This document shows positions 19,733-62,521 of a stretch of 64,000 nucleotides of DNA, piece after piece (the first letter of the stretch is position 1; each line of letters begins with the position of its first letter). The stretch is taken from assembly GCA_963727185.1 (NCBI GenBank), contig CAVSFP010000009.1:221702-285701 (forward strand), written 5' to 3'. The notes under the pieces are model-generated. The model made no database searches. It had not been told where the DNA came from and worked only from the letters and a program-made list of their open reading frames with translations. The position numbers and the translations under genes are program-made. This stretch comes from an uncultured Actinomycetes bacterium. Its GTDB lineage: Bacteria > Actinomycetota > UBA4738 > HRBIN12.

Positions 19733-19842
19733 GGCGTGAGTGTACGTTCAGGTTTCACGGGGCTTCAGACGGTGCAAGCTGGAGGCCGCCGGGCCACCGG
19801 AGAGACCGCCCTCTCTACGCCCTTCGGCAGCCTCTGCGCGCC

Positions 19843-20232
19843 CTAAGCGCTCCAGAAGGCGTCGGCGGCAGCCTGGTCGAACGGTGTGATCCAGACTTCT
19901 TTCGCCTTGCCGTCTTCGATGTGGAACACCAATACCTGCGCCAAGGTGACCGTGTTCCCACGGCGCGTCGCCGTCGCGCTCACGAGCGCGATGGTGTGTT
20001 CGTCGTCAGCGACGATCGCGTGGATCTCCTGGCTGAAGGAGTCGGTCTCTTGAGGGATCAGTGCGAAGCTCCCGAAGACCGCCTGCTTGCCCACGAAGTC
20101 CCCCGCGATGACGCCAGTGCCCGAGGCATGCCAGACGACGTCGTCGCTCATGATCCCATCGAGCGTCGCCATGTCTCCCGCAGCGAACGCCTCGAAGCCT
20201 TTCCGAACCAGGTCCGCATTCGGATGTGCCAT
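19843..20232 (-). CDS. SnoaL-like / NTF2-fold protein
   Basis: ATG 20232 gives MAHPNADLVRKGFEAFAAGDMATLDGIMSDDVVWHASG..., a typical SnoaL_2 N-terminus. Its 3' ~185 bp recur at 62337..62521. Confidence 0.75.
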   Translation of the reverse strand: MAHPNADLVRKGFEAFAAGDMATLDGIMSDDVVWHASGTGVIAGDFVGKQAVFGSFALIPQETDSFSQEIHAIVADDEHTIALVSATATRRGNTVTLAQVLVFHIEDGKAKEVWITPFDQAAADAFWSA

Positions 20233-34519: not shown

Positions 34520-34969
34520 CTAGGGAACGGCCGAACGAGCAGGGCGATCCCACTCCTTCAGGAGGCGCTCGCGCTGACGCAGGGCCCGGTCGTAGGCGAT
34601 GATGAGCGACCCCTTGAGCGGCGACAGCGCGACGACCGCCTCGTCGAGGAAGCCGGCGTGCACACCCGGGCGATCCCACCCCTTCAGGAGGCGATCGCGC
34701 TGACGCAGGGCCCGGCCGTACGCGATGACGAGCGACTCGCTGAGCGGCGACTGCGCGACGACCCCGTCGTCGAGGGATCCGTTGCTTTCCGCCACGCGGG
34801 TACCGCTGCCTTCCACGCTCGTCACGGATCGATCGCCTCGACCGGCCACGTTGAGTGCCACCGCGCTCAGGATCAGCGCCGCGGCCGCAAGAACGGACAC
34901 GGTTACGGTCCAGAACGTGAACAGCGCCGGTCGGCCGGAGAACCCCATGGTTCCCGCTTTCGTGCTCAT
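34520..34969 (-). CDS. membrane-anchored protein with 2 x 42-aa tandem repeat (copy 1 of a paralogous pair)
   Basis: MSTKAGTMGFSGRPALFTFWTVTVSVLAAAALILSAVAL forms an N-in signal anchor. It is followed by two 126-bp repeats encoding ..SPL(S/K)(E/G)SL(V/I)IAY(G/D)RALRQR(D/E)RLLK(G/E)WDRP.. GC3 is high, and GGGGAGGGA lies upstream of the ATG. Confidence 0.55.
   Translation of the reverse strand: MSTKAGTMGFSGRPALFTFWTVTVSVLAAAALILSAVALNVAGRGDRSVTSVEGSGTRVAESNGSLDDGVVAQSPLSESLVIAYGRALRQRDRLLKGWDRPGVHAGFLDEAVVALSPLKGSLIIAYDRALRQRERLLKEWDRPARSAVP
34542..34793. repeat. 126-bp tandem repeat x2 (in-frame, 42 codons) inside 34520..34969
   Basis: The units start at about 34,542 and 34,668 (GGGCGATCCCAC(T/C)CCTTCAGGAGGCG...). 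Similarity fades in the last ~15 nt. Confidence 0.85.
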
Positions 34970-34984
34970 GATCCCTCCCCTTCC

Positions 34985-35010
34985 CTCGGGTACCGATCTC
35001 TGATCCCGAG
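34985..35010. promoter_or_regulatory. conserved dyad CTCGGG-N14-CCCGAG directly upstream of the small-gene RBS (also at 42765-42790)
   Basis: It is identical in both module copies. Copy 2 additionally carries a ~12-bp near-tandem duplication of one arm (CTCGGGTACCtc/CTCGGGTACCga). It could be an operator or an RNA hairpin. Confidence 0.35.
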
Positions 35011-35082
35011 GCTAGAGAGAGCACCGACCCGAGGAATCCCCGAAACCCGTACCGATCGAGACGGTGACCGGTAGGTCTTGGC

Positions 35083-37882
35083 TCACGATCCCGGATGGCC
35101 GGATGGGAACGTCGAGGCCAGCTCCGTGCGGGAGCGGATGCCCAGCTTGCGGTAGATCCGCTTGAGATTGGCTTCCACGGTATGGACGCTGACGAACAGG
35201 GCGTCGGCCACCTCTCGGTTGGTGCTCCCGGCGGCGACCAGCTCCGCCACCCTGGCCTCGGTCGGGGTCAGGTCCACCGAGGAGGCGGCCCGTCCGCCGA
35301 TCCGGGCAAGCTCGGCACGCGTCCGTTCCGCCCACTCCGCGGCGCCGAGCCGCTCGAAGATCTCCAGAGCCTGCGTGAGCGTGTCCCGAGCCTCACGCTT
35401 CCTCTTGGCCCGGCGCTGCACCGCTCCCCTCACCAACAGCGTCCGACCCAGCTCGAACGGAAGGGGCAGGCGATCGTGTTGACGGACGGCCTCATCGGCT
35501 GCATCAGATGCACCTTGGAGGTCACCCCGGGCCGCGAACACGAGCGCCCGGCATCTGGCTCCCGTCGCCATCGCCCATGCCCGATCGAGGCTTCGGCCGG
35601 CCTCCTCGAAGGGGGCGAGGAGCGCCTCAGCCTCGTCGAGCCGCCCGAGGGCGACGAGCGCCTCGACCTCGTCCGGGACGACCCGGAAGTAGGCGGGCTC
35701 CCGAACGCCCATCGCTTGCTCGAGCTCGACGGCCCTGGACAGGAACGCATCGGCCTCGGCGGGTCGGCCCAGGGAAAGCTCGAGGAACCCCAGGACCGAC
35801 AGGTTCGGGATCAGGAGGAGGATCTCGCCGGCCGCCTCGGCGACCCGCAGCCCCTCGAGGGCTTCCAGCCTCGCCGGGTCGGCCCGCCCCAGATGGGCTT
35901 CCACCAGGCCCACCGCGAAGTGGCCCTCCGACCGACATGGGCCCCATGTGGTTCCGCTGGGCGGTCGCCCTGCTCTCCCGGGCGTGCTCGATGGCTGCAT
36001 CCCAGTTGCCCGCCCGACACTCCAGCTCGGCGAGGTGGTATCGGATCTGCGCTTGCGGGGTCTCAACGCCGTGCGCCGCGGCATCACCCAGGAGCTCGGT
36101 GAACGTCCGGCGGGCCTCGTCCAGGCGATCGGTGAACTTGAGGAGCTGCGCTACGACGAAGCTTGCACGCAGGACGTGGGATTTGAATTCGCCCTCCATG
36201 TGCCCTTCCAGGGCGATCCCGCGATCGAGCATCTCCTGATCGACCCCGCGTCCGAGGAGGAACTCGACGAATGGATACGCCTGGAACGCTTCGGCCATCA
36301 CCCGTGGTTCCTGCAGCTCCTCGGCCAGCTGCAGCGCGGCGCGAGCGTGCCGTTCCGATGCCGCGAGGTCGCCCCTGAACAGCCAGGCGTACCCGAGGTT
36401 CTGCTCGATCAGTGCCCGCAGCGCGAGATCGTCCCCCGCCTCGCCCCGAGCAGCCTCGAACACGGCCCAGGCCCCCCGCCACCCTTCGGTCTCGGCGAGG
36501 CCCATCCCCAGGTCCAGTAGCAGTCGGGCCCGAGCCGGCCCGGCCATCGAGAGGTCCACCGCTTGCTCCAGGACGCTCCGCGCCAGCGAGGGGTCCCCGC
36601 TCTCGAAGTGAGCCACGCCCGCCTGGTGGGTCCGACGCACCAGGTCCTCGCCTCGATCCCGCGGCGTGGCGCGGCGGGCCATCTCCCAGAGCTCGGCCGC
36701 GGATTGCGGCGCTCCCCGGGAGGAGGCCAGCAGGGCGGCCTCCTCGAGGGCGGCGGCGACGGCGACGTCCGGGCCCTCGACGGACAGAGCCAGGTGGCGG
36801 GCTCGTTCCTCCGGATCGAGGACGATCGTCGCGAGCCGCGCGTGCAGCTCGCGACGCCGGGCAGGCGGGATCTTCTGATAGACGGCGGAAGCAAGGAGAG
36901 GGTGCGTGAACCGGAGCCCGTCGCCGACGACCTCCACGACGTCGTTGTCGATGGCAGGACCCAGACGATCGTCAACCCCGCGCGAAGGAGCGATCGCCGC
37001 AGCGATCACATCGAACGTCGGAGCCGACAGGGCCGAGACGATCTCCAGGGCTTCGACGGTCCGCGCAGGGAGCCCCCCGAGGCGATCCTCGATGAGCTCT
37101 TGAAGGCGGTCAGGGATCGGGAGCCCTTCGCCGGCCGTCACGTCACCTCCGCGGCGAAGGAGCGCCAATCCGATCTCCCGTGCGAAGAAGGGATTGCCTC
37201 CCGACATCTGGTGGAGGCTGAGGAGCGTGGTTCGGGAGAACCCTTCCCCCACCTTGGCCCGAAGCACCCGTTCGAGGGCGTCCTGCGACAGCGGTCCGAC
37301 GTGGACGGCGTGCACGCGATCCTCGGCGAAGGCCGACACGACGCCCAGGGGGTCGTCATCGGCACGGGCGCCTCGAGCGGCCGTCATCAAACCGACCTGC
37401 TCGTCCTTCAGGCGCCGCACGACGAACTGGAGCACCCGGACCGAAGGGATGTCCATCCATTGGACGTCATCGACGGCCACCACCACGGGAGAGGTGGAGG
37501 CCACCGATCGGAGGCATCCAAGCACGGCCAGGGAAACGGCCCGCTGGTCGGCTCGGGCGCCCGATCTCGGGGAGCGCAAGAGGGCCACCTCGAGGGCCTG
37601 ACGCTGTGGCTCCGGCACGGTGGGAAGTGCCTCCTCGAGGATGGGCTCGAGGAGGTCACCGAGGGCAGCGTAGGACAGGCGTGTCTCGGCCTCGACCGGA
37701 CCGCATGAGAGCGTGCGGTAGCGCCGCAGCTGAGCACCCGCCAGCCCCTCCTTCCACACGGTGGTCTTGCCGATGCCGGGATCACCCGACAGGACCAAGG
37801 CGCTCGGCCCGGTCGGGATCGAGTCCAGGAACCGATGGAGGATCGCGAGCTCGGACTCGCGCCCGATGACGTCACCGGCCAA
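35083..37882 (-). pseudogene. LAL-type regulator (P-loop NTPase + TPR + C-terminal LuxR HTH), copy 1, split by a 1-nt insertion
   Basis: The N-terminal 751-aa ORF (35627..37882) has Walker A GDPGIGKTT and Walker B VVVAVDDVQWMD. The C-terminal 334-aa ORF (35083..36087) ends in the GerE HTH LTPTEARVAELVAAGSTNREVADALFVSVHTVEANLKRIYRKLG. The two frames join at about 35,921-35,940, where copy 1 has one nucleotide more than the intact paralogue. Confidence 0.8.
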
Positions 37883-37935
37883 GACGCTCTCCCCGCGCTC
37901 GGTGGATGCCAGGATTCTAAGGATGGCGGGTCCGA
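37883..37935 (-). promoter_or_regulatory. conserved upstream region of the LAL gene with -10-like TAGAAT (copy 2: TACAAT at about 45,691-45,696)
   Basis: The homologous segments are ..CCGCCATCCTTAGAATCCTGGCATCCACCG.. and ..CCGCCATCCTTACAATCCTGGCGTCCACCG.. Each lies about 31 nt upstream of a TTG start at the equivalent position, with GGGAGAG-type SD boxes between. Confidence 0.4.
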
Positions 37936-38061
37936 ACCTGCGCCTCGATCACTCCGAGCTCCCGTGCCGTCTGTCGCGGGTCCACCTCGAGGTCGCCGGT
38001 CGTGAGCGTCCCTGAGTTTCCCCAAGTTGCGTCCGGGGAGCGTTGATTGCACCATGCGCGC

Positions 38062-39408
38062 ATGGAGCGCCCCGGTGTCGCCTTCGCCCGCGCTCAGGAT
38101 GGGGCATACCTCGCGTACCAAGCCTTCGGCGATGGACCGATCGACCTCCTGTGGCAGGACGACTTCTTCGCGATCGTCGACGAGTGGTGGGACTCGCCGG
38201 TTGACCGCGCCATCTACGAGAACCTCGCTGGATCCGCGCGGGTGATACTGCACGACCGGCGCGGCACCGGTTGTTCGAGCCGTGACGGCGGGCCGGCGAA
38301 CCTCGAGACCCGGGTTTCGGACACGCTCGCCGTGATGGACGCCGCTGGCGTGCAGCAAGCGGTCGTCGGCGGTCTCTTGGAAGGGGGAGCGAGCATGGCA
38401 CTGTTGGCCGCCATGTACCCCGAACGGGTCCGAGCGTTGGTGTGGTCGCGGCCGGTACCGTGCGCCGCGGCGAGGCCTGATTTCCCATGGGGCGTCGACG
38501 CCTCGTATATCGAGCGTGAGGAGGAGATCACGAGCGACTGGGGCACGGAGGCATTCGCACGCGGCTTCATGGAGCTGAACGCAGAGGCCATGGAAGGCCC
38601 GTGGTCGGCAGAGAGCTATGTCGCCACCCTCGCTCGGATCACACGCCGGACGTGTACCCCCGACGTGGCGAAGCAGCTCAACACGATGTGGTACGAGACC
38701 GACGTCCGCGGGGTGTTGTCGTCCATCCAAGTGCCGACGCTCCTGCTCGTCGACCGGGAGGACTCCGACCACGACCTCCGCACGATCGGCGAGCACGTCG
38801 CTTCGTTGATCCCCGACGCCGTTATCGAGCCCTACATCCTTGTGGACGACACCGGCGCCGGCGTCCGCGCGATGGGGGAATCGATCCGCCGGTTCATCGG
38901 TGCCGAGCGACGGCCCGAAGCGCTGGACTCCGTCCTGGCGACCGTGCTGTTCACCGATATCGTCGACTCGACCAAGCGCAGCGCGGAGTTGGGCGACCGG
39001 GAGTGGGGCGCCGTGCGACGGCGGCACGATGACATCGTCCGCGCCGAGCTGGCGCGCTACCGTGGCCGCGAGGTGAAGACGATGGGCGACGGGTTCCTCG
39101 CAACCTTCGAGGGTCCCGCACGCGGTGTGCATTGCGCCCGAGCGATCGCGGAAGGCGTCAGAGCGTTAGGGATCGAGATCCGCGCCGGCCTCCACACCGG
39201 CGAGATCGAACTGGAGGGCGACGACATCGCGGGGATCGCGATCGCGATCGGCGCCCGCATCGGCGCCATGGCAGGTGCATCCGAAGTGCTCGTGTCTCGC
39301 ACCGTGAAAGACCTCACGGCCGGAAGTGGACTCACCTTCGAAGACGTCGGAGAACACGACTTGAAGGGCGTCCCCGACCGCTGGCAGCTCTATCGGGTTG
39401 CGGGCTAG
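38062..39408 (+). CDS. alpha/beta-hydrolase domain fused to class III adenylate/guanylate cyclase domain
   Basis: The N-terminal ~270 aa are alpha/beta-hydrolase-like (VILHDRRGTGCS; GGLLEGGASMALLAAMYPERV). The C-terminal cyclase homology domain reads LATVLFTDIVDSTKRSAELGD...KTMGDGFLATFEGP...RAGLHTGEIE. The start is taken at ATG 38062 (ORF-track TTG 38047). Confidence 0.85.
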   Translation: MERPGVAFARAQDGAYLAYQAFGDGPIDLLWQDDFFAIVDEWWDSPVDRAIYENLAGSARVILHDRRGTGCSSRDGGPANLETRVSDTLAVMDAAGVQQAVVGGLLEGGASMALLAAMYPERVRALVWSRPVPCAAARPDFPWGVDASYIEREEEITSDWGTEAFARGFMELNAEAMEGPWSAESYVATLARITRRTCTPDVAKQLNTMWYETDVRGVLSSIQVPTLLLVDREDSDHDLRTIGEHVASLIPDAVIEPYILVDDTGAGVRAMGESIRRFIGAERRPEALDSVLATVLFTDIVDSTKRSAELGDREWGAVRRRHDDIVRAELARYRGREVKTMGDGFLATFEGPARGVHCARAIAEGVRALGIEIRAGLHTGEIELEGDDIAGIAIAIGARIGAMAGASEVLVSRTVKDLTAGSGLTFEDVGEHDLKGVPDRWQLYRVAG

Positions 39409-42314: not shown

Positions 42315-42737
42315 CTATCGTCCAGCCGAGGACCGCGGGAAGATGATTCCTTGGTCGCACCCGACACAGGAGGGCAGGGAACGTGACCGAGCAAGCGCCC
42401 CAGCAAACCTCGGGAAGATGGTTCCTTGGTCGCACCCGACACAGGAGGGCAGGGAACGTGACCGAAGAAGCGCCCTAGGAACACCCGAGAAGATGGTTCC
42501 TTGATCGCATCCGACACAGGAGGGCAGGGCGCCCGCGTTCGCCGAAGCGCCGACCCGCTCGGCCCGCTCACCATCCCTTGCCACACTCGTAACGGAGCGA
42601 TCGCCGCGTACCGCCACGGTGAGCGCCAGGGCGCTCATGATCAGCGCCGCGGCCGCAAGAACGGACACCGTTACGGTCCAGAACGTGAACAGCGCCGGTC
42701 GGCCGGAGAACCTCATGGTTCCCGCTTTCGTGCTCAT
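42315..42737 (-). CDS. membrane-anchored protein with 3 x 25-aa CxxC-containing tandem repeat (copy 2 of the paralogous pair); coding status of the repeat part uncertain
   Basis: The N-terminal ~50 aa are almost identical to 34520..34969 (MSTKAGTMRFSGRPALFTFWTVTVSVLAAAALIMSALAL). The C-terminus is three repeats of SLPSCVGCDQGTIFP(R/S).....(S)R. The repeat part uses many low-GC3 codons (tgt, caa, gga, ctt, tca), unlike neighbouring genes. Confidence 0.45.
   Translation of the reverse strand: MSTKAGTMRFSGRPALFTFWTVTVSVLAAAALIMSALALTVAVRGDRSVTSVARDGERAERVGASANAGALPSCVGCDQGTIFSGVPRALLRSRSLPSCVGCDQGTIFPRFAGALARSRSLPSCVGCDQGIIFPRSSAGR
42337..42530. repeat. 75-bp tandem repeat x about 2.6
   Basis: The units start at about 42,337, 42,412 and 42,487. 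The first ~52 nt of each unit are nearly identical (GGGAAGATG(A/G)TTCCTTGGTCGCACCCGACACAGGAGGGCAGGGAACGTGACCGA). The last ~23 nt are more diverged. Confidence 0.85.
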
Positions 42738-42861
42738 GAATCCCTCCCTTCCCTCGGGTACCTCCTCGGGTACCGATCTCTGATCCCGAGGCTAGAGGGA
42801 GCATCGTTCCGGGGAATCCCCGAAACCCGTACCGATCGAGACGGAGACCGGTACGTCTTGC

Positions 42862-45765
42862 TCAGGATCCCGGGTGGCCGGATGGGAACTTCGAGGCCAG
42901 CTCCGTGCGGGAGCGGATGCCCAGCTTGCGGTAGATCCGCTTGAGATTGGCTTCCACGGTATGGACGCTGACGAACAGGGCGTCGGCCACCTCTCGGTTG
43001 GTGCTCCCGGCGGCGACCAGCTCCGCGACCCTGGCCTCGGTCGGGGTCAGGTCCACCGAGGAGGCGGCCCGTCCGCCGATCCGGGCAAGCTCGGCACGCG
43101 TCCGTTCCGCCCACTCCGCGGCGCCGAGCCGCTCGAAGATCTCCAGAGCCTGCGTGAGCGTGTCCCGAGCCTCACGCTTCCTCTTGGCCCGGCGCTGCAC
43201 CGCTCCCCTCACCAACAGCGTCCGACCCAGCTCGAACGGAAGGGGCAGGCGATCGTGTTGACGGACGGCATCATCGGCTGCATCAGATGCACCTTGGAGG
43301 TCACCCCGGGCCGCCAACACGAGCGCCCGGCATCTGGCTCCCGTCGCCATAGCCCATGCCCGATCGAGGCTTCGGCCGGCCTCCTCGAAGGGGGCGAGGA
43401 GCGACTCGGCCTCGTCGAGCCGCCCGAGGGCGACGAGCGCCTCGACCTCGTCCGGGACGACCCGGAAGTAGGCGGGCTCCCGAACGCCCATCGCTTGCTC
43501 GAGCTCGACGGCCCTGGACAGATACGCATCGGCCTCGGCGGGTCGACCCAGGGAAAGCTCGAGGAACCCCAGGACCGCCAGGTTCGGGATCAAGGGGAGC
43601 ATCTCGTCGGCCGCTTCGGCGAGGCGCAGCCCTTCAAGGGCTTCCAGCCTCGCCGGGTCGGCCCGCCCCAGATGGGCTTCCACCAGGCCCACCGCGAAGT
43701 GAGCCATCGACGAGAAGGACCCCATGGCTTGCCGCTGGGCGGCCGCCTTGCTTTCGCGGGCGTGTTCCATGGCTGCATCCCAATTCCCCGCCCGGCATTC
43801 CAGCTCCGCGAGGTGATACAGGATCTGAGGGACCGGGCTCTCGACACCATGCGCCGAGGCACCAGCCAGGAGCTCGTTGAACGTCCGGCGGGCCTCGTCC
43901 AGGCGGTCGGTGAACTTGAGGAGTTGAGCGAGGACGAAGCTCGCGCGCAGGACGTATGAGATTAACTCCCCCGACATATGCCCCTCCAGGGCTATGCCAC
44001 GATCCAGCAGCTCGTGATCGACTCCCCGCCCCAGGAGGAACTCGACGAATGGATACGCCTGGCAGGCTTCGGCCATCACCCGTGGGTCCTGCAGCTCCTC
44101 GGCCAGCTCCAGCGCCGCGCGAGCGTGCCGTTCCGATGCCGCGAGGTCTCCTATGAACAACCGGGCGTACCCGAGATTTTGCTCGACACGTGCTTTCAAA
44201 GCGAGATCGTCTCCCACCTCGTTCGAGGCAGCCGAGAAGATGTCCACGGCCCGCCGCCAGCCTTCCTCCGCCGCAACGACCTGGCCCAGATCGAGTAGCA
44301 CCCTTGCCCGAGGCGGCCCGTGGGTCGAAAGGTTCACCGCTTGCTCGAGGACGCTCCGCGCCAGCGAGGTGTCTCCGCACTCGTAGTGAGCCACGCCCGC
44401 CTGGTGGGTCCGACGCACCAGGTCCTCGCCTCGATCCCGCGGCGTAGCGCGGCGGGCCATCTCCCAGAGCTCGGCCGCGGATTGCGGCGCTCCCCGGGAG
44501 GAGGCCAGCAGGGCGGCCTCCTCGAGGGCGGCGGCGACGGCGACGTCCGGGCCCTCGACGGACAGAGCCAGGTGGCGGGCTCGTTCCTCCGGATCGAGGA
44601 CGATCGTCGCGAGCCGCGCGTGCAGCTCGCGACGCCGGGCAGGCGGGATCTTCTGATAGACGGCTGAAGCAAGGAGAGGGTGCGTGAACCGGAGCCCGTC
44701 GCCGACGACCTCCACGACGTCGTTGTCGATGGCAGGACCCAGACGATCGTCAACCCCGCGCGAAGGAGCGATCGCCGCAGCGATCGCATCGAACGTCGGA
44801 GCCGACAGGGCCGAGACGATCTCCAGGGCTTCGATGGTCCGCGCAGGGAGCCCCCCGAGGCGATCCTCGATGAGCTCTTGGAGGCGGTCAGGGATCGGGA
44901 GCTCTTCGCCGGCCGTCACGTCACCTCCGCGGCGAAGGAGCGCCAATCCGATCTCTCGTGCGAAGAAGGGATTGCCTCCCGACATCTGGTGGAGGCTGAG
45001 GAGCGTGGTTCGGGAGAACCCTTCCCCCACCTTGGCCCGAAGCACCCGTTCGAGGGCGTCCTGCGACAGCGGTCCGACGTGGACGGCGTGCACTCGATCC
45101 TCGGCGAACGCCGACACGACGCCCAGGGGGTCGTCATCGGCACTGGCGCCTCGAGCGGCCGTCATCAAACCGACCTGCTCGTCCTTCAGGCGCCGCACGA
45201 CGAACTGGAGCACCCGGACCGAAGGGATGTCCATCCATTGGACGTCATCGACGGCCACCACCACGGGAGAGGTGGAGGCCACCGATCGGAGGCATCCGAG
45301 CACGGCCAGGGAAACGGCCCGCTGGTCGGCTCGGGCGCCCGATCTCGGGGAGCGCAAGAGGGCCACCTCGAGGGCCTGACGCTGTGGCTCGGGCACGGCG
45401 GGAAGTGCCTCCTCGAGGACGGGCTCGAGGAGGTCACCGAGGGCAGCGTAGGACAGGCGTGTCTCGGCCTCGACCGGGCGGCATGAGAGCGTGCGGTAGC
45501 GCTGTTGCAGGGCACCCGCCAGCCCCTCCTGCCATACGGTCGTCTTCCCGATGCCGGGATCACCGGATAGGAGCAGGGCGCTCGGGCCGGTCGGGATCGA
45601 GTCCAGGAAGCGATCGAGGATCGCGAGCTCGGACTCGCGCCCGATGACGTTATCTGCCAAAGGCGCTCTCCCGCGTCGGTGGACGCCAGGATTGTAAGGA
45701 TGGCGGGGCCAACCTTGCAGACCCGTCGAGGCTCGCACGGTCGGCGGTACCCGCCATCGCGCCAA
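42862..45765 (-). CDS. LAL-type regulator (P-loop NTPase + TPR + LuxR HTH), copy 2, intact
   Basis: 967-aa ORF with the same Walker A/B motifs and C-terminal GerE HTH as copy 1. The likely true start is TTG 45660 (..LADNVIGRESELAIL), homologous to the copy-1 start and downstream of the conserved TACAAT box. Confidence 0.85.
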   Translation of the reverse strand: MARWRVPPTVRASTGLQGWPRHPYNPGVHRRGRAPLADNVIGRESELAILDRFLDSIPTGPSALLLSGDPGIGKTTVWQEGLAGALQQRYRTLSCRPVEAETRLSYAALGDLLEPVLEEALPAVPEPQRQALEVALLRSPRSGARADQRAVSLAVLGCLRSVASTSPVVVAVDDVQWMDIPSVRVLQFVVRRLKDEQVGLMTAARGASADDDPLGVVSAFAEDRVHAVHVGPLSQDALERVLRAKVGEGFSRTTLLSLHQMSGGNPFFAREIGLALLRRGGDVTAGEELPIPDRLQELIEDRLGGLPARTIEALEIVSALSAPTFDAIAAAIAPSRGVDDRLGPAIDNDVVEVVGDGLRFTHPLLASAVYQKIPPARRRELHARLATIVLDPEERARHLALSVEGPDVAVAAALEEAALLASSRGAPQSAAELWEMARRATPRDRGEDLVRRTHQAGVAHYECGDTSLARSVLEQAVNLSTHGPPRARVLLDLGQVVAAEEGWRRAVDIFSAASNEVGDDLALKARVEQNLGYARLFIGDLAASERHARAALELAEELQDPRVMAEACQAYPFVEFLLGRGVDHELLDRGIALEGHMSGELISYVLRASFVLAQLLKFTDRLDEARRTFNELLAGASAHGVESPVPQILYHLAELECRAGNWDAAMEHARESKAAAQRQAMGSFSSMAHFAVGLVEAHLGRADPARLEALEGLRLAEAADEMLPLIPNLAVLGFLELSLGRPAEADAYLSRAVELEQAMGVREPAYFRVVPDEVEALVALGRLDEAESLLAPFEEAGRSLDRAWAMATGARCRALVLAARGDLQGASDAADDAVRQHDRLPLPFELGRTLLVRGAVQRRAKRKREARDTLTQALEIFERLGAAEWAERTRAELARIGGRAASSVDLTPTEARVAELVAAGSTNREVADALFVSVHTVEANLKRIYRKLGIRSRTELASKFPSGHPGS

Positions 45766-45837
45766 GCCTCGAAGTCACCTTCGGAGATCGTGCGGCGAGT
45801 TGAGGGAGTCCTCTCGAAAGGATCGTCGAACCCCATT

Positions 45838-45892
45838 GGACACGGACTCCGATTCCTGAACCACATGGGACACGGACTCCGATTCCTGAACC
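45838..45892. repeat. 25-nt motif GGACACGGACTCCGATTCCTGAACC repeated twice with 30-bp period in the divergent LAL/cyclase intergenic region
   Basis: Read directly from the sequence, with copies at about 45,838-45,862 and 45,868-45,892. It is absent from the equivalent copy-1 intergenic region. Confidence 0.85.
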
Positions 45893-46035
45893 GCCAATGG
45901 CCTATCCCCAAAAGCGCTTCGTGCGACGTACAACCGCCGTGATCTAGAGTTCGGTGAGGCAGTGCCTACACGTCCAGCCGAGGGTAAGGGTTGTACGCGT
46001 GGTCGGCGCGGTAGGTGAGAGCTGGAGGGTGCTTC

Positions 46036-47292
46036 ATGATCGCGGACACCTCGATCGGCCCAGATGAGCTCGCCTCTCGCGCCAACGTCACCCGCGAGCG
46101 GGTCGACGAGCTGGCGAAGCTCGGCCTGATCGAGGCGCATGGCGATCGATTCGTGGCGGCGGACGTTGGCCGGATCGCCGTCGTCGAAGCCCTCGTCGGT
46201 TCCGGCGTTCCGCTGGCGGATCTCGTCGAGACCGCTGCCGCCGGCGTGGTGTCGCTCGCGTGGTTCGAAGGCGTGCTACCCCCGTCCCCCCCACTCGGTG
46301 CCAGAACGTATCGAGAGGTGCTCGAAGAGCTCGACCTGCCAGCCGCTCTCGTCTGCACCCTGTTCGAAATCTGGGGTGTCACCCAGCCGCCGCTCGATGA
46401 CCGCATCCGGGCGGACGACGAGCGACTGTTCCGCTTCCTTGCGCCTTCCTATGAAACGCTCGGCCGCGCCGATGAGAAGTTCCTCGAAGCAACGCGGCAC
46501 TTCGGCGACAACGCGCGTCGAAGCGCCGAGGCCCAGATCGACTTCTATCGTCGCAGGATCTTGGAACCGCTCCTCGCGTCGGGTCTCTCCTTGAAAGAGA
46601 TCGTGGAGAGGATCAATCCGATCACGAGCAAGGTGATGCGACCGGGCGTTCACGAACTCCTCCTTTGGCTTAACCGGCGTCACGTCGACGCCCTGAACAT
46701 GCAGATGCTCGTCCAGCTCGTCGAGACGGCTTTGCTCGACGCGGGCGTCGAGATTGCCCGCGAGCAACGACACCCCGCGATCGCGTTCCTCGATCTGTCG
46801 GGCTTCACTCGGTTAACCGAGGAGGCCGGCGACGAACAGGCCGTCTCGCTCGCCACGAACCTATCCGATGTCGTTAGGACTGCGGCCCTGAAGTTCGGCG
46901 GCATCGCCGTCAAGTTGTTGGGGGATGGAGTGATGTTCCACTTCCCTGATCCGGCGGACGCGGTGCGCTGTGCCTTGTACCTGCTGCCCGAAGCGGCCAG
47001 GCGCCAGCTTCCGCCGGCGCGGGTTGGCGTACACGCGGGACCGGTCGTGTTCCGAGACGGTGACTACTTCGGGCGGACGGTGAATCTGGCCTCCAGGATC
47101 ACGGATTACGCGCGACCGGGTGAGGTTGTCGTGTCCCAGTCGGTGGTTCAGTCGGTGGGCGAGGTGGAGGGCGTAGCATTCCAACCGATCGGGCCCGTGG
47201 CGCTCAAAGGTATCTTGGAACCCATCGTCCTCCACGTGGCACGGGGCCCTATCGGAGCAGGGCCGGTGCCGGGCTCATCTTCTGCCGCGTAG
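46036..47292 (+). CDS. class III adenylate/guanylate cyclase with N-terminal HTH-like (MerR-type?) and helical domains
   Basis: GGAGGG lies 7 nt upstream of ATG 46036. The N-terminus MIADTSIGPDELASRANVTRERVDELAKLGLI is HTH-like. The C-terminal cyclase domain reads AIAFLDLSGFTRLTEEAGDE...KLLGDGVMFHFPDP...RVGVHAGPVVFRDGDYFGRTVNLASRI. Confidence 0.8.
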   Translation: MIADTSIGPDELASRANVTRERVDELAKLGLIEAHGDRFVAADVGRIAVVEALVGSGVPLADLVETAAAGVVSLAWFEGVLPPSPPLGARTYREVLEELDLPAALVCTLFEIWGVTQPPLDDRIRADDERLFRFLAPSYETLGRADEKFLEATRHFGDNARRSAEAQIDFYRRRILEPLLASGLSLKEIVERINPITSKVMRPGVHELLLWLNRRHVDALNMQMLVQLVETALLDAGVEIAREQRHPAIAFLDLSGFTRLTEEAGDEQAVSLATNLSDVVRTAALKFGGIAVKLLGDGVMFHFPDPADAVRCALYLLPEAARRQLPPARVGVHAGPVVFRDGDYFGRTVNLASRITDYARPGEVVVSQSVVQSVGEVEGVAFQPIGPVALKGILEPIVLHVARGPIGAGPVPGSSSAA

Positions 47293-61578: not shown

Positions 61579-62340
61579 ATGGGCGATATCGACCGCTTCT
61601 TCGCGTTCGAAGCCCATCGTCACTCGCTGCTCAGCACCCGTACGGAGCCGTTCGAGGGCGGCGTCGCGTACTTCGACGACGGGTATCCGGAGAGGTACGT
61701 GTCCAACTTCCTCCTCGTCGACCGCGACGAGGTAACGCTCACCGGCGATCGACTCGCGTCGTTGGCGGACGACATCATGGGTGGCGAAGGGCTCTCGCAC
61801 CGCCACGTGACGGTCCTGGGCGAGCGCGGCGGGCGACTGGCGCCGTCGTTCCGCGACCGCGGGTATGAGGTCGGGAGGATCGTCGCGATGGCGCTTCGCA
61901 GGCCTCCCGATCGTCCCGCCGCCCTGTCGACGGAGGAGCGTTCGTTCGATGAGGTCCGCCCGCTCATGGAGGAGATCTACTGCAGGGAGCTGCCGCGGGC
62001 GCCGGAGACCGCGGATCGTTTCGTCGAGCAGCACGCGGGGTGGGACCGCATCCTCGGCACACGGCGGTTCGCCGCGCGGATCGACGGCACGCTCGCCGGG
62101 CAATGTGAGCTGTACGTGAACGGCGCCGACGCGCAGATCGAGTACGTCGACACGCTCGAGGAGTACCGCGGGCGCGGGGTCGCGCGCGCCGTCGTGCTCG
62201 CGGCCGCCGAGGCGGCGCGCCGCGCCGGGGCCGATCGGGTATTCATCGCCACCGACGAGGACGACGGGCCGAAGCTCCTCTACGAACGCTTCGGGTTCGA
62301 CCCGATCGGCCACGAGTGGGAGTTCACGCGTTACCCCTAG
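61579..62340 (+). CDS. GNAT-family N-acetyltransferase
   Basis: The C-terminal acetyl-CoA motif is IEYVDTLEEYRGRGVARAVVLAAAEAARRAGADRVFI...LYERFGF. Confidence 0.8.
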   Translation: MGDIDRFFAFEAHRHSLLSTRTEPFEGGVAYFDDGYPERYVSNFLLVDRDEVTLTGDRLASLADDIMGGEGLSHRHVTVLGERGGRLAPSFRDRGYEVGRIVAMALRRPPDRPAALSTEERSFDEVRPLMEEIYCRELPRAPETADRFVEQHAGWDRILGTRRFAARIDGTLAGQCELYVNGADAQIEYVDTLEEYRGRGVARAVVLAAAEAARRAGADRVFIATDEDDGPKLLYERFGFDPIGHEWEFTRYP

Positions 62341-62521
62341 GCGCTCCAGAAGGCGTCGGCGGCAGCCTGGTCGAACGGTGTGATCCAGACTTCTTTCGCC
62401 TTGCCATCTTCGACGTGGAACACGAACACCTGCGCCAACGTGGCCGTCTTCCCACGGCGCGTCGCCGTCGCGCTCACGAGCGCGATGGTGTGGTCGTCGT
62501 CGGCGACGATCGCGTGGATCA
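62337..62521 (-). pseudogene. 3'-terminal remnant (about 60 codons) of a SnoaL-like gene, duplicate of 19843..20027
   Basis: It reads ..IHAIVADDDHTIALVSATATRRGKTATLAQVFVFHVEDGKAKEVWITPFDQAAADAFWSA-stop. About 185 bp align with the intact gene at 19.8 kb with about 10 mismatches. There is no N-terminal half and no plausible start. Confidence 0.7.

What the first reader, a model, noticed from the sequence alone, without database searches (positions are those of the whole stretch)
34800..37935. Mosaic segmental duplication: near-identical ends, diverged central (TPR) block
Region about 34,800-37,935 recurs at about 42,590-45,712. The first ~440 codons of the regulators (ATPase and the first helical part) differ by only scattered substitutions. 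The last ~290 codons, the HTH, the intergenic spacer and the first ~50 codons of the small gene are equally close.

The central ~230 codons are much more divergent at both protein and DNA level (copy 1 about 35,930-36,560; copy 2 about 43,700-44,340). Examples are AVDLSMAGPARARLLLDLGMGLAETEGWRGAWAVFEAARGEAGDD versus AVNLSTHGPPRARVLLDLGQVVAAEEGWRRAVDIFSAASNEVGDD.

Such a pattern fits gene conversion homogenising the flanks. It also fits diversification or replacement of a putative ligand- or partner-sensing TPR block.
Basis: seen in the sequence. Interest (0 to 1): 0.6.

Follow-up and report, generated by a model that had tools for sequence, protein, structure and literature searches.

The report
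Partly gene-converted paralogous LAL regulator genes
Two old sister copies of a large ATP-binding LuxR-type (STAND) regulator gene in an uncultured soil actinomycete have recently copied about 1.1 kb and 0.65 kb of sequence from one to the other. The middle sensor (TPR) segment stayed distinct, which is a clean but ordinary case of bacterial gene conversion.

Summary
Window 34809-37939 recurs at 42576-45715 (92.8% over 3.15 kb), and the identity is sharply mosaic:

| Segment | Identity |
|---|---|
| Outer edges | 87-88% |
| Two inner tracts (1093 and 647 bp) | 98.7-98.9% |
| Central 684 bp | 80.7% |

Both copies are minus-strand genes for 932-aa AAA_16 + TPR + LuxR-HTH (LAL/STAND) regulators. 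Each is followed by a small membrane-anchored repeat protein.

Block-wise trees with 39 homologous loci, AU tests and per-block dS show two things:
- The centre is old (dS 0.38, ω 0.33). It belongs to two deep classes: B (copy 1 and most relatives) and A (copy 2 and a minority).
- The flanks are recent copies of each other (dS about 0.03).

So two old paralogues were partly homogenised by gene conversion, most likely with copy 1 as donor. Post-duplication diversification is rejected.

The A/B split is family-wide and confined to residues about 447-712 of the TPR sensor. Other genomes show their own conversion tracts.

Copy 1 carries a +1 G frameshift at about 35932, which I judge about 70% likely to be a long-read assembly error.

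The parts
35083..37882 (-). Copy 1: B-type LAL/STAND regulator gene (TTG start at 37882, stop at 35083). It would encode 932 aa, but is split by one extra G at ~35932.
   Evidence: ORFs 35627-37882 and 35083-36150 overlap in different frames. Full-length DNA is 95.0% identical to the single orthologue of congener G001. The central block is 95-99% identical to G001, G007, G010 and G017_a.
35932..35933 (-). +1 G frameshift in copy 1 (TCGGTCGG where all relatives have TC-GTCGG), 10 bp from the sharpest identity breakpoint.
   Evidence: Alignments. No other lesion occurs in the gene. Single-base frameshifts are common in long-read MAG homologues and almost absent in short-read ones. In G000, 2 of ~24 other sampled genes are also frame-broken.
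42862..45660 (-). Copy 2: intact 932-aa mosaic LAL/STAND regulator gene (TTG start at 45660; the frame is open upstream to 45765). It has B-like tracts around an A-type central block.
   Evidence: Pfam AAA_16 4e-19, TPR_12 2e-19, GerE 8.5e-14. Walker A GDPGIGKT at aa 33-40. AF2 model pLDDT 89.7. Start codon and RBS are shown.
36607..37699 (-). N-side conversion tract (copy 2: 44385-45477), 1093 bp, 98.7% identical. It encodes aa ~62-425 (P-loop NOD, winged helix, arm, first TPR helices).
   Evidence: dS is 0.028. c1 and c2 differ at 12 of 413 family-polymorphic sites, against 64-163 in other co-resident A/B pairs. c1 and c2 are sisters in the block tree.
35923..36606 (-). Unconverted central cassette (copy 2: 43702-44384), 684 bp, 80.7% identical. 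It encodes aa ~426-653, eleven TPR-like helices of the sensor domain.
   Evidence: dS 0.377, dN 0.126, ω 0.33. c2 groups with L038a, L037, L040 and L075; c1 groups with 33 B-type sequences. AU test p = 1e-44 against c1+c2 monophyly. c1 and c2 differ at 99 of 224 polymorphic sites, like other A/B pairs.
35743..35922 (-). Patchy transition zone (copy 2: 43522-43701), 92.8% identical. There is an identical stretch at 35858-35922 and an unconverted patch at 35799-35857 that keeps the A-state residue D685.
   Evidence: Difference positions are listed.
35096..35742 (-). C-side conversion tract (copy 2: 42875-43521), 647 bp, 98.9% identical. It encodes aa ~714-928 (distal TPRs and the LuxR HTH).
   Evidence: dS is 0.033. 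c1 and c2 differ at 5 of 227 polymorphic sites, against 62-75 in other pairs. They are sisters in the block tree.
37700..37939 (-). Old N edge (copy 2: 45478-45715), 88% identical. It covers the first ~60 codons, the RBS and the core promoter (-10 TAGAAT / TACAAT). Homology ends ~55 bp upstream of the start codon.
   Evidence: dS is 0.25. The c1 edge is 95-96% identical to B orthologues; the best match of the c2 edge is 91-93% (L037, L040, L068).
34809..35095 (-). Old downstream edge (copy 2: 42576-42874), 87% identical. It covers the last LAL codons, a hairpin-bearing spacer (11-bp duplication in copy 2 at ~42753-42763) and the first ~55 codons of the small gene.
   Evidence: The c1 edge is 98% identical to G001 and G007; the best match of the c2 edge is 88-90%.
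34520..34969 (-). Small gene 1: TM-anchored protein with 2 x 42-aa C-terminal repeats.
42315..42737 (-). Small gene 2: the same TM anchor, then 3 x 25-aa CxxC repeats (75-bp tandem repeat at 42332-42556). This tail is conserved in congener G010.
   Evidence: G010 matches 133 aa at 79% and DNA 42338-45731 at 89%.

Best explanation
**Anatomy.** The two segments are an old pair of paralogous operons. Each has a core promoter, a 932-aa LAL/MalT-like STAND regulator and a small membrane-anchored repeat protein. The regulator has a P-loop NOD, a TPR sensor superhelix and a C-terminal LuxR HTH.

**Two classes.** The regulators fall into two classes that differ family-wide only in part of the TPR sensor (aa ~447-712):
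- Class B is the common orthologue. Copy 1 belongs to it.
- Class A is a minority paralogue that co-occurred with a B copy in every genome where this could be checked. Copy 2 belongs to it.

**What happened in this genome.** Homologous recombination between the two copies, which lie 7.8 kb apart, recently overwrote two stretches of copy 2 with copy 1 sequence. These are 1093 bp (NOD and proximal helices) and 647 bp (distal TPRs and HTH), plus a patchy 180-bp zone. Left untouched were the 684-bp core of the A cassette, the promoter with the first 60 codons, and the spacer with the small-gene start.

The tracts probably stop at the cassette for one of two reasons. Its 20-33% divergence may block heteroduplex extension or mismatch-repair-tolerated pairing. 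Alternatively, convertants that lose the A sensor may be selected against. Which of the two applies is inferred, not shown.

**Result.** Copy 2 is a natural chimera with a B ATPase, a mostly A sensor (14 of 19 class-defining residues) and a B DNA-binding domain. It should therefore bind the same operators as copy 1 but respond to a different signal.

**Frameshift.** The +1 G in copy 1 is most likely (about 70%) a Nanopore consensus error at the repeat boundary. Otherwise it is a very recent inactivation of the B copy.
For: **Shown**
- The mosaic identity profile and breakpoints; the permutation test.
- dS is 13-fold lower in the tracts than in the centre, with equal ω.
- Block trees and AU tests (ΔlnL 164, 249 and 75; p = 1e-44, 1e-34, 8e-5).
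- At family-polymorphic sites c1|c2 differ at 12/413, 99/224 and 5/227. Three other co-resident A/B pairs differ at 64-163, 104-116 and 62-75.
- Copy 1 is collinear with its congeners' single B gene: 95.0% over 3169 bp to G001, with edges at 98%. Copy 2's edges and centre have no such close relative. This supports c1 as donor.
- The gene order A -> small gene -> B is also found in congener G008.
- Independent conversion tracts exist in other genomes. L070|L075 are 97-100% identical over ~450 bp, and L043a|b are 94-99% identical at the 3' end.
- The family-wide dimorphism is confined to the centre:

| Data | Block | A-B | B-B | A-A |
|---|---|---|---|---|
| DNA | centre | 80.5 | 90.6 | 86.3 |
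| DNA | N | 85.4 | 84.7 | 86.7 |
| DNA | C | 86.0 | 85.4 | 88.9 |

- Among 95 full-length database proteins the centre is bimodal, 16 A against 79 B. The A clade has support 1.0 in the centre only.
- All 19 class-fixed residues lie at aa 447-712.
- Architecture: Pfam, the AF2 model and fold hits to STAND-TPR 6mfv, Avs3 8dgc and MalT 8bob.

**Inferred**
- The direction of transfer, the reason the tracts stop at the cassette, and the sensor function of the cassette. The sensor role is by analogy with MalT-type STAND regulators (established knowledge).
Against: - The genome is an 86%-complete MAG in 24 contigs, probably a Nanopore-only assembly like its relatives. A consensus artefact in the near-identical tracts therefore cannot be formally excluded.
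- The direction c1 -> c2 rests on similarity to congeners. The flanks carry no class signal family-wide.
- Two separate tracts need either two events or one event with patchy repair.
- Nothing shows that either regulator is expressed, or what it senses.
Confidence: 0.8

Rival explanations
1. Recent duplication of the B gene (copy 1 giving copy 2), followed by replacement of the central block. The donor would be an A-type gene, either a lost or unassembled third copy or DNA from another strain.
For: The end product (B-A-B) is the same. The genome is only 86% complete, so a third copy could be missing. This gene family recombines freely between lineages. The locus has no conserved flank synteny with congeners.
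Against: Copy 2's promoter with its first 60 codons (88%, dS 0.25) and its spacer with the small-gene start (87%) are also old, and they are not copy 1-like. A recent duplication would therefore need three separate replacements. The only other paralogue in the assembly is 38% identical. The best A-type relative of the centre is only 89-91% identical, so no recent donor is seen. The A -> small gene -> B order is shared with G008.
Confidence: 0.1
2. Assembly or polishing artefact. A metagenomic long-read consensus mixes strains or mis-maps reads between the two copies, creating the near-identical tracts or the whole second copy.
For: The genome is a MAG. Relatives come from Nanopore-only Flye assemblies with one Medaka round. 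The assembly shows frame breaks in 2 of ~24 sampled genes. The frameshift sits 10 bp from a breakpoint.
Against: The copies have unique flanks on one 306-kb contig, 7.8 kb apart. Mis-mapping cannot turn ~15% divergence into 99% identity over 1.1 kb while leaving a sharp 684-bp island at 80%. Residual scattered differences remain in the tracts. Similar tracts occur in other, independently assembled MAGs.
Confidence: 0.05
3. Recent whole-segment duplication followed by rapid adaptive diversification of the TPR block.
For: The divergence is concentrated in a putative sensor segment.
Against: Central dS is 0.377, 13 times that of the flanks, and ω is 0.33, no higher than in the flanks. The same A-type block occurs in at least 16 other protein clusters and 4 other loci, as a well-supported clade.
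Confidence: 0.02

Closest known systems
LAL (large ATP-binding LuxR-family) / MalT-type STAND transcription regulators, e.g. E. coli MalT and actinomycete cluster regulators such as PikD (recalled from established knowledge)
   Same: N-terminal P-loop NOD (AAA_16, Walker A GDPGIGKT, invariant DD), a long TPR-like sensor superhelix, a C-terminal LuxR/GerE HTH, and ~930 aa. The best fold matches are STAND-TPR protein 6mfv, Avs3 and MalT. Database homologues carry the precomputed Pfam family PF17874, which I recall as the MalT-like TPR region.
   Different: There is no sequence-level hit to MalT or any LAL in the PDB beyond the HTH and generic TPRs. The ligand, the targets and the ATP dependence are unknown. 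The gene is paired with a small membrane-anchored repeat protein and sits next to class III cyclase genes, not in a recognisable biosynthetic cluster.
Ectopic gene conversion between bacterial paralogues, e.g. the tufA/tufB system of Salmonella (PMC5485169) and PE_PGRS pairs of mycobacteria (PMC1762029)
   Same: Non-reciprocal homogenisation of stretches of hundreds to ~1000 bp between dispersed copies in one chromosome. The tracts are bounded by the limits of homology, and mismatch repair shortens or patches them.
   Different: Here conversion is partial and leaves an internal island, whereas in tuf the whole gene is kept uniform. The direction and rate were not measured. The organism is uncultured.
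IFIT1/IFIT1B of mammals (PMC4887208): TPR proteins with recurrent gene conversion
   Same: An ancient paralogue pair in which one part of the gene is repeatedly homogenised (97-98% identity) while the specificity-determining part stays 62-63% identical. The breakpoints recur at a structural subdomain boundary, and only the non-converted part recovers the true A/B phylogeny.
   Different: That system is eukaryotic and antiviral. It has one converted end rather than two tracts around a central cassette. The functional difference was shown experimentally there but not here.
M. tuberculosis Rv0386-type proteins (class III cyclase fused to ATPase-TPR-LuxR; recalled from knowledge, not tested here)
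   Same: The same set of domains is associated: class III cyclase genes lie divergently upstream of both copies.
   Different: Here the cyclase is a separate gene. The two cyclases are only 30% identical, and the association is loose in relatives.

Membership tests
LAL / MalT-type STAND LuxR regulators | N-terminal P-loop NTPase (Walker A and B) of the STAND/AAA_16 type | tested here: met
   PF13191 AAA_16 E = 4e-19. GDPGIGKT at aa 33-40. Invariant G36, K39, T40, D138 and D139 in 31 homologues.
LAL / MalT-type STAND LuxR regulators | C-terminal LuxR/GerE helix-turn-helix | tested here: met
   PF00196 E = 8.5e-14 at aa 906-958 of P0001. PDB profile hits to GerE, NarL and DevR HTHs.
LAL / MalT-type STAND LuxR regulators | Long helical-repeat (TPR/SUPR) sensor domain between the NOD and the HTH; total size ~870-1100 aa | tested here: met
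   TPR_12, TPR_8 and TPR_2 hits. The AF2 model has paired helices from aa 373 to 860, pLDDT ~90-98. Fold hits to 6mfv, 8dgc and 8bob. Length is 932 aa.
LAL / MalT-type STAND LuxR regulators | Inducer- and ATP-dependent oligomerisation that activates transcription | not testable with these tools
   Needs biochemistry.
Ectopic gene conversion between paralogues | Tracts in which paralogues within a genome are more alike than either is to orthologues, next to segments with the opposite pattern | tested here: met
   Tracts are 98.7-98.9% identical between c1 and c2, against at most 96% to any orthologue. In the centre c1 is 95-99% identical to orthologues but 80.7% to c2.
Ectopic gene conversion between paralogues | Significant phylogenetic incongruence between adjacent segments | tested here: met
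   Block trees. AU tests give p = 1e-44, 1e-34 and 8e-5.
Ectopic gene conversion between paralogues | Synonymous divergence collapses inside the tracts | tested here: met
   dS is 0.028 and 0.033, against 0.377 in the centre and 0.247 at the N edge.
Ectopic gene conversion between paralogues | Non-reciprocal transfer with an identifiable donor | tested here: inconclusive
   Copy 1 stays collinear with its congeners' B genes, which suggests it is the donor. The flanks carry no class signal family-wide.
Ectopic gene conversion between paralogues | The pattern is present in the DNA molecule, not only in the consensus | not testable with these tools
Adaptive diversification of a duplicated sensor domain | Excess of non-synonymous change (ω > 1, or raised relative to the flanks) with low dS | tested here: not met
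   Centre ω is 0.33 with dS 0.377. Flank ω is 0.29-0.31.
Pseudogene (copy 1) | A disabling lesion confirmed in reads, usually with further decay | tested here: inconclusive
   There is one +1 G and no other lesion. The assembly and its long-read relatives are rich in single-base frameshifts. Reads were unavailable.

The most novel reading that the evidence does not exclude
The A/B difference is a selectively maintained, exchangeable 'sensor cassette' (aa ~447-712). Across this uncultured actinomycete lineage, the NOD, the distal TPRs and the HTH of co-resident paralogues are repeatedly homogenised by conversion, while two signal specificities are kept apart. Natural chimeras such as copy 2 (B ATPase and HTH with 14 of 19 A-defining residues) would then map the specificity determinant of an LAL/STAND regulator. 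They would also show that two sensors feed one shared regulon.
Probability: 0.35. Interest if true: 0.5.

Novelty: new member of a known kind. Interest (0 to 1): 0.35.

Why it matters
- **Phylogeny and annotation.** Whole-gene trees or identity values of these regulators are misleading. Only the central ~0.7-0.8 kb tells which paralogue a gene is, as in the IFIT1/IFIT1B case.
- **Function.** The sharply bounded A/B cassette, with 19 class-fixed residues of which 9 lie in aa 447-495 (seven in two helices, H449-466 and H468-481), gives a concrete and testable guess for where signal specificity of an LAL/STAND regulator lies. The natural chimera shows that the modules are interchangeable.
- **Data quality.** Single-base frameshifts in long-read MAGs, especially at repeat boundaries, should not be read as pseudogenes without checking reads.

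Otherwise this is an ordinary, well-understood evolutionary process in ordinary regulators.

Tried and rejected
- **Reads.** Neither the frameshift nor the physical linkage of the copies could be verified with reads, and read laying was not attempted.
- **A third close paralogue as cassette donor.** The only other paralogue in the assembly is 38% identical.
- **Flank synteny with congeners** (to place the ancestral copy). DNA homology with G001, G007, G008, G010 and G017 is confined to the same ~3.15-kb module. tblastn of the neighbouring genes found only scattered cyclase and DUF4386 hits.
- **Residual differences in the tracts.** At most of the 21 sites copy 2 carries the minority state, but the sites are polymorphic family-wide, so nothing decisive follows about patchy versus post-conversion change.
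- **Small gene 1 repeats as a frame-shifted version of the usual repeat.** No similarity was found to the LWDAGKLEAMQGRVLAE repeat of relatives. Only the first 196 nt and the last 21 nt match.
- **Technical failures.** The first MAFFT run and the first genome-wide tblastn timed out and were redone with lighter settings.
- **PDB sequence search.** It gave only HTH and generic TPR hits and no solved LAL.
Full report
**1. The observation**

A self-BLAST of the window finds one long direct repeat, 34809-37939 vs 42576-45715, at 92.8% identity over 3152 columns. A global alignment with 100-bp sliding windows and likelihood change-point segmentation resolve six segments:

| Copy 1 | Copy 2 | Identity | Length |
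|---|---|---|---|
| 34809-35095 | 42576-42874 | 87.0% | |
| 35096-35742 | 42875-43521 | 98.9% | 647 bp |
| 35743-35922 | 43522-43701 | 92.8% | |
| 35923-36606 | 43702-44384 | 80.7% | 684 bp; minimum 67% near 36450 |
| 36607-37699 | 44385-45477 | 98.7% | 1093 bp |
| 37700-37939 | 45478-45715 | 88.0% | |

The clustering of differences cannot be chance. The best-window log-likelihood ratio is 70.4, against at most 11.6 in 200 permutations.

**2. What the genes are**

Both copies lie on the minus strand.

- **Copy 2** is intact (42862-45660, TTG start with a GGGAGAG ribosome-binding site).
- **Copy 1** (35083-37882) has the same start context. It carries one extra G at ~35932 (TCGGTCGG where copy 2 and all seven first-compared relatives have TC-GTCGG). 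This splits it into two overlapping ORFs.
- **Domains.** The 932-aa protein has AAA_16 (4e-19), TPR_12 (2e-19) and GerE/LuxR (8.5e-14) domains and a Walker A motif GDPGIGKT. An AlphaFold2 model has mean pLDDT 89.7. It shows a P-loop NOD with a winged helix (aa 1 to ~340), paired helices from 373 to 860, and an HTH at 873-924.
- **Fold.** Foldseek's best PDB matches are a STAND-TPR protein (6mfv), Avs3 (8dgc) and, among many TPR proteins, MalT (8bob). This is a LAL/MalT-type STAND regulator.
- **Neighbours.** Each copy is followed by a small gene (34520-34969; 42315-42737) that shares a TM anchor and then has unrelated tandem repeats. Each is preceded, divergently, by a class III cyclase-domain gene (38047-39408; 46015-47292). 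The two cyclases are only 30% identical.
- **Extent of the repeat.** The repeated DNA spans only the core promoter (-10 TAGAAT / TACAAT), the regulator, the spacer and ~55 codons of the small gene.

**3. Age of the blocks**

The extra G was removed for this analysis only. Nei-Gojobori estimates between the copies are:

| Block | dS | ω |
|---|---|---|
| N tract | 0.028 | 0.29 |
| Centre | 0.377 | 0.33 |
| C tract | 0.033 | 0.31 |
| First ~75 codons | 0.247 | 0.25 |

Selection is equally purifying everywhere, and only the age differs. This rejects post-duplication adaptive diversification of the TPR block.

**4. Relatives**

The genome is an 86%-complete MAG of 3.88 Mb in 24 contigs. Its only other paralogue is 38% identical. 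Congeners and related genera carry 75-90% identical homologues, sometimes in tandem (G008, G017, L043). They are all uncultured Actinomycetota MAGs, many from the Microflora Danica long-read catalogue.

An alignment of 39 homologous genes with c1 and c2 shows two deep classes in the central block:
- Class B holds c1 and 33 others, 87-98% identical to c1.
- Class A holds c2, L038a (= G008_a), L037, L040 and L075, 83-91% identical to c2.

In the N and C blocks c1 and c2 are sisters, and the class A members are scattered among class B sequences. AU tests reject:
- c1+c2 monophyly in the centre (ΔlnL 164, p = 1e-44);
- class A monophyly in the N block (ΔlnL 249, p = 1e-34);
- class A monophyly in the C block (ΔlnL 75, p = 8e-5).

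At sites that are polymorphic in the family, the G000 pair compares with three other co-resident A/B pairs as follows:

| Block | c1 vs c2 | Other co-resident A/B pairs |
|---|---|---|
| N tract | 12/413 | 64-163 |
| Centre | 99/224 | 104-116 |
| C tract | 5/227 | 62-75 |

The centre of the G000 pair is therefore a normal A/B comparison. Its flanks are more than 10-fold too similar. This is the signature of gene conversion.

**5. Direction and history**

Copy 1 is collinear with its congeners' single B gene along its whole length:
- 95.0% identity over 3169 bp to G001, against 89.7% for copy 2;
- a downstream edge 98% identical to G001 and G007;
- a centre 95-99% identical to G001, G007, G010 and G017_a.

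Copy 2's edges and centre have no such close relative (best 88-93%). So copy 1 is unmixed B, and copy 2 is an A gene with two B tracts. I infer transfer from c1 to c2.

Congener G008 has the same order, A -> small gene -> B. This fits an old tandem pair that in G000 is separated by ~4.4 kb of other DNA. The two tracts have equal dS, so they may stem from one event with patchy repair or from two events close in time. The 180-bp transition zone contains an unconverted patch (35799-35857) that still encodes the A-state residue D685. That looks like patchy heteroduplex repair.

A recent duplication of B followed by cassette replacement would give the same centre. It does not explain copy 2's old promoter, first 60 codons, spacer and small-gene start.

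**6. A family-wide pattern**

With G000 excluded, mean DNA identities are:

| Block | B-B | A-A | A-B |
|---|---|---|---|
| Centre | 90.6 | 86.3 | 80.5 |
| N block | 84.7 | 86.7 | 85.4 |
| C block | 85.4 | 88.9 | 86.0 |

The A/B difference thus exists only in the centre. It spans c1 coordinates ~36650-35800, which nearly coincides with the island left unconverted in G000.

Other co-resident pairs have their own tracts. L070|L075 are 97-100% identical over ~450 bp of the N block, and L043a|b are 94-99% identical at the 3' end.

A search of the 5.8-billion-protein collection with copy 2's central 228 aa found 277 relatives. Among 95 full-length representatives the centre is cleanly bimodal, 16 A against 79 B with no intermediates. 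The A clade has support 1.0 in the centre tree and does not exist in the N or C trees.

Nineteen residues are fixed between the classes, all within aa 447-712. Nine lie in aa 447-495, mostly in helices H449-466 and H468-481. Copy 2 has the A state at 14 of the 19 and the B state at 495, 667, 708, 711 and 712, the last four inside its C-side tract. In class B this block is also the most conserved part of the gene.

I infer that the block carries the paralogue-specific function, most plausibly signal or partner sensing, as in MalT-type STAND proteins. I also infer that either its divergence or selection stops conversion there. Neither inference is shown.

**7. The frameshift**

Single-base frame breaks occur in at least 11 of ~25 long-read MAG homologues of this gene but in almost none of 14 short-read ones. 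The related catalogue is Nanopore-only Flye with one Medaka round (PMC12313526).

In G000 itself, about 24 non-LAL genes have short-read-MAG homologues. Two of them are frame-broken, with three events (C12:56422-58129; C6:83054-83664). That is roughly one break per 10 kb.

Copy 1 has no other lesion. Its extra G sits in a cluster of c1/c2 differences 10 bp from the sharpest breakpoint, where mis-assigned reads of the other copy would disturb a consensus. I put ~70% on an assembly error and ~30% on a real, very recent inactivation of the B copy.

**8. Comparison with what is known**

- Gene conversion between dispersed bacterial paralogues is well established, for example tufA/tufB (PMC5485169) and PE_PGRS pairs (PMC1762029).
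- The closest analogue in pattern is mammalian IFIT1/IFIT1B. These are TPR proteins in which one part is repeatedly homogenised and the specificity-bearing part is not, with recurrent breakpoints at a subdomain boundary (PMC4887208).
- A full-text search found no description of this for LAL/STAND regulators.

The case is a new, well-resolved member of a known kind of process in a known kind of regulator.

**9. Verdict**

- The gene-conversion reading is supported (0.8). Cassette replacement is at 0.1, an assembly artefact at 0.05 and adaptive diversification at 0.02.
- Interest is modest (0.35). The most novel reading still open is a selectively maintained, exchangeable sensor cassette on a concertedly evolving backbone (probability ~0.35).

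Noticed in passing
34520-34969 and 42315-42737; loci L037-L076: The small gene downstream of the regulator has a conserved TM anchor but a hypervariable repeat tail. Most relatives carry 2-5 copies of a ~26-aa unit, PLWDAGKLEAMQGRVLAE... Small gene 1 has 2 x 42 aa of an unrelated unit. Small gene 2 and congener G010 have 3 x 25-aa CxxC units. The DNA homology between the copies, and with relatives, ends just before the repeats.
   Followed up: partly
45833-45892: A perfect-register 30-bp tandem direct repeat (GGTTCAGGAATCGGAGTCCGTGTCC[C/A]ATG[T/G], minus-strand reading) lies in the unique DNA upstream of copy 2's promoter, between it and the divergent cyclase gene. It could be an operator or a slippage product.
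   Followed up: no
34984-35080 and 42764-42860: The spacer between the regulator and the small gene contains an inverted repeat, CCTCGGG...CCCGAGG. Copy 2 has an 11-bp duplication (GGTACCCGAGG, about 42753-42763) next to it. GTACCGATC-like motifs recur in the spacer.
   Followed up: no
38047-39408 and 46015-47292: Class III adenylate/guanylate cyclase-domain genes lie divergently upstream of both regulator copies (one fused to an alpha/beta hydrolase). They are only 30% identical to each other. Cyclase genes also lie within a few kb of the regulator in several relatives (L039, L047, L055, L057).
   Followed up: partly
Genome G000: C12:56422-58129 and C6:83054-83664; loci L058, L062, L063, L067, L068, L072, L073, L075, L076: Single-base frame breaks are frequent in this MAG (2 of ~24 sampled genes) and in long-read MAG homologues of the regulator. 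They are nearly absent in short-read MAG homologues. 'Pseudogenes' in this genome need read-level confirmation.
   Followed up: partly
Window 34774-37939 vs G001, G007, G008, G010, G017 loci (L031-L035): The ~3.15-kb regulator and small-gene-start module is the only DNA around this locus shared with congeners. The flanks are not syntenic in any of five relatives, so the module sits in a plastic region.
   Followed up: partly
19841-20026 and 62335-62520: A 186-bp direct repeat at 94.6% identity, 42 kb apart, was seen in the window self-BLAST.
   Followed up: no
L070 and L075 (one contig, ~58 kb apart); L043 tandem pair: Independent conversion tracts occur between co-resident paralogues in other MAGs. 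L070 and L075 are 97-100% identical over ~450 bp of the NOD region, and the L043 pair is 94-99% identical at the 3' end.
   Followed up: partly
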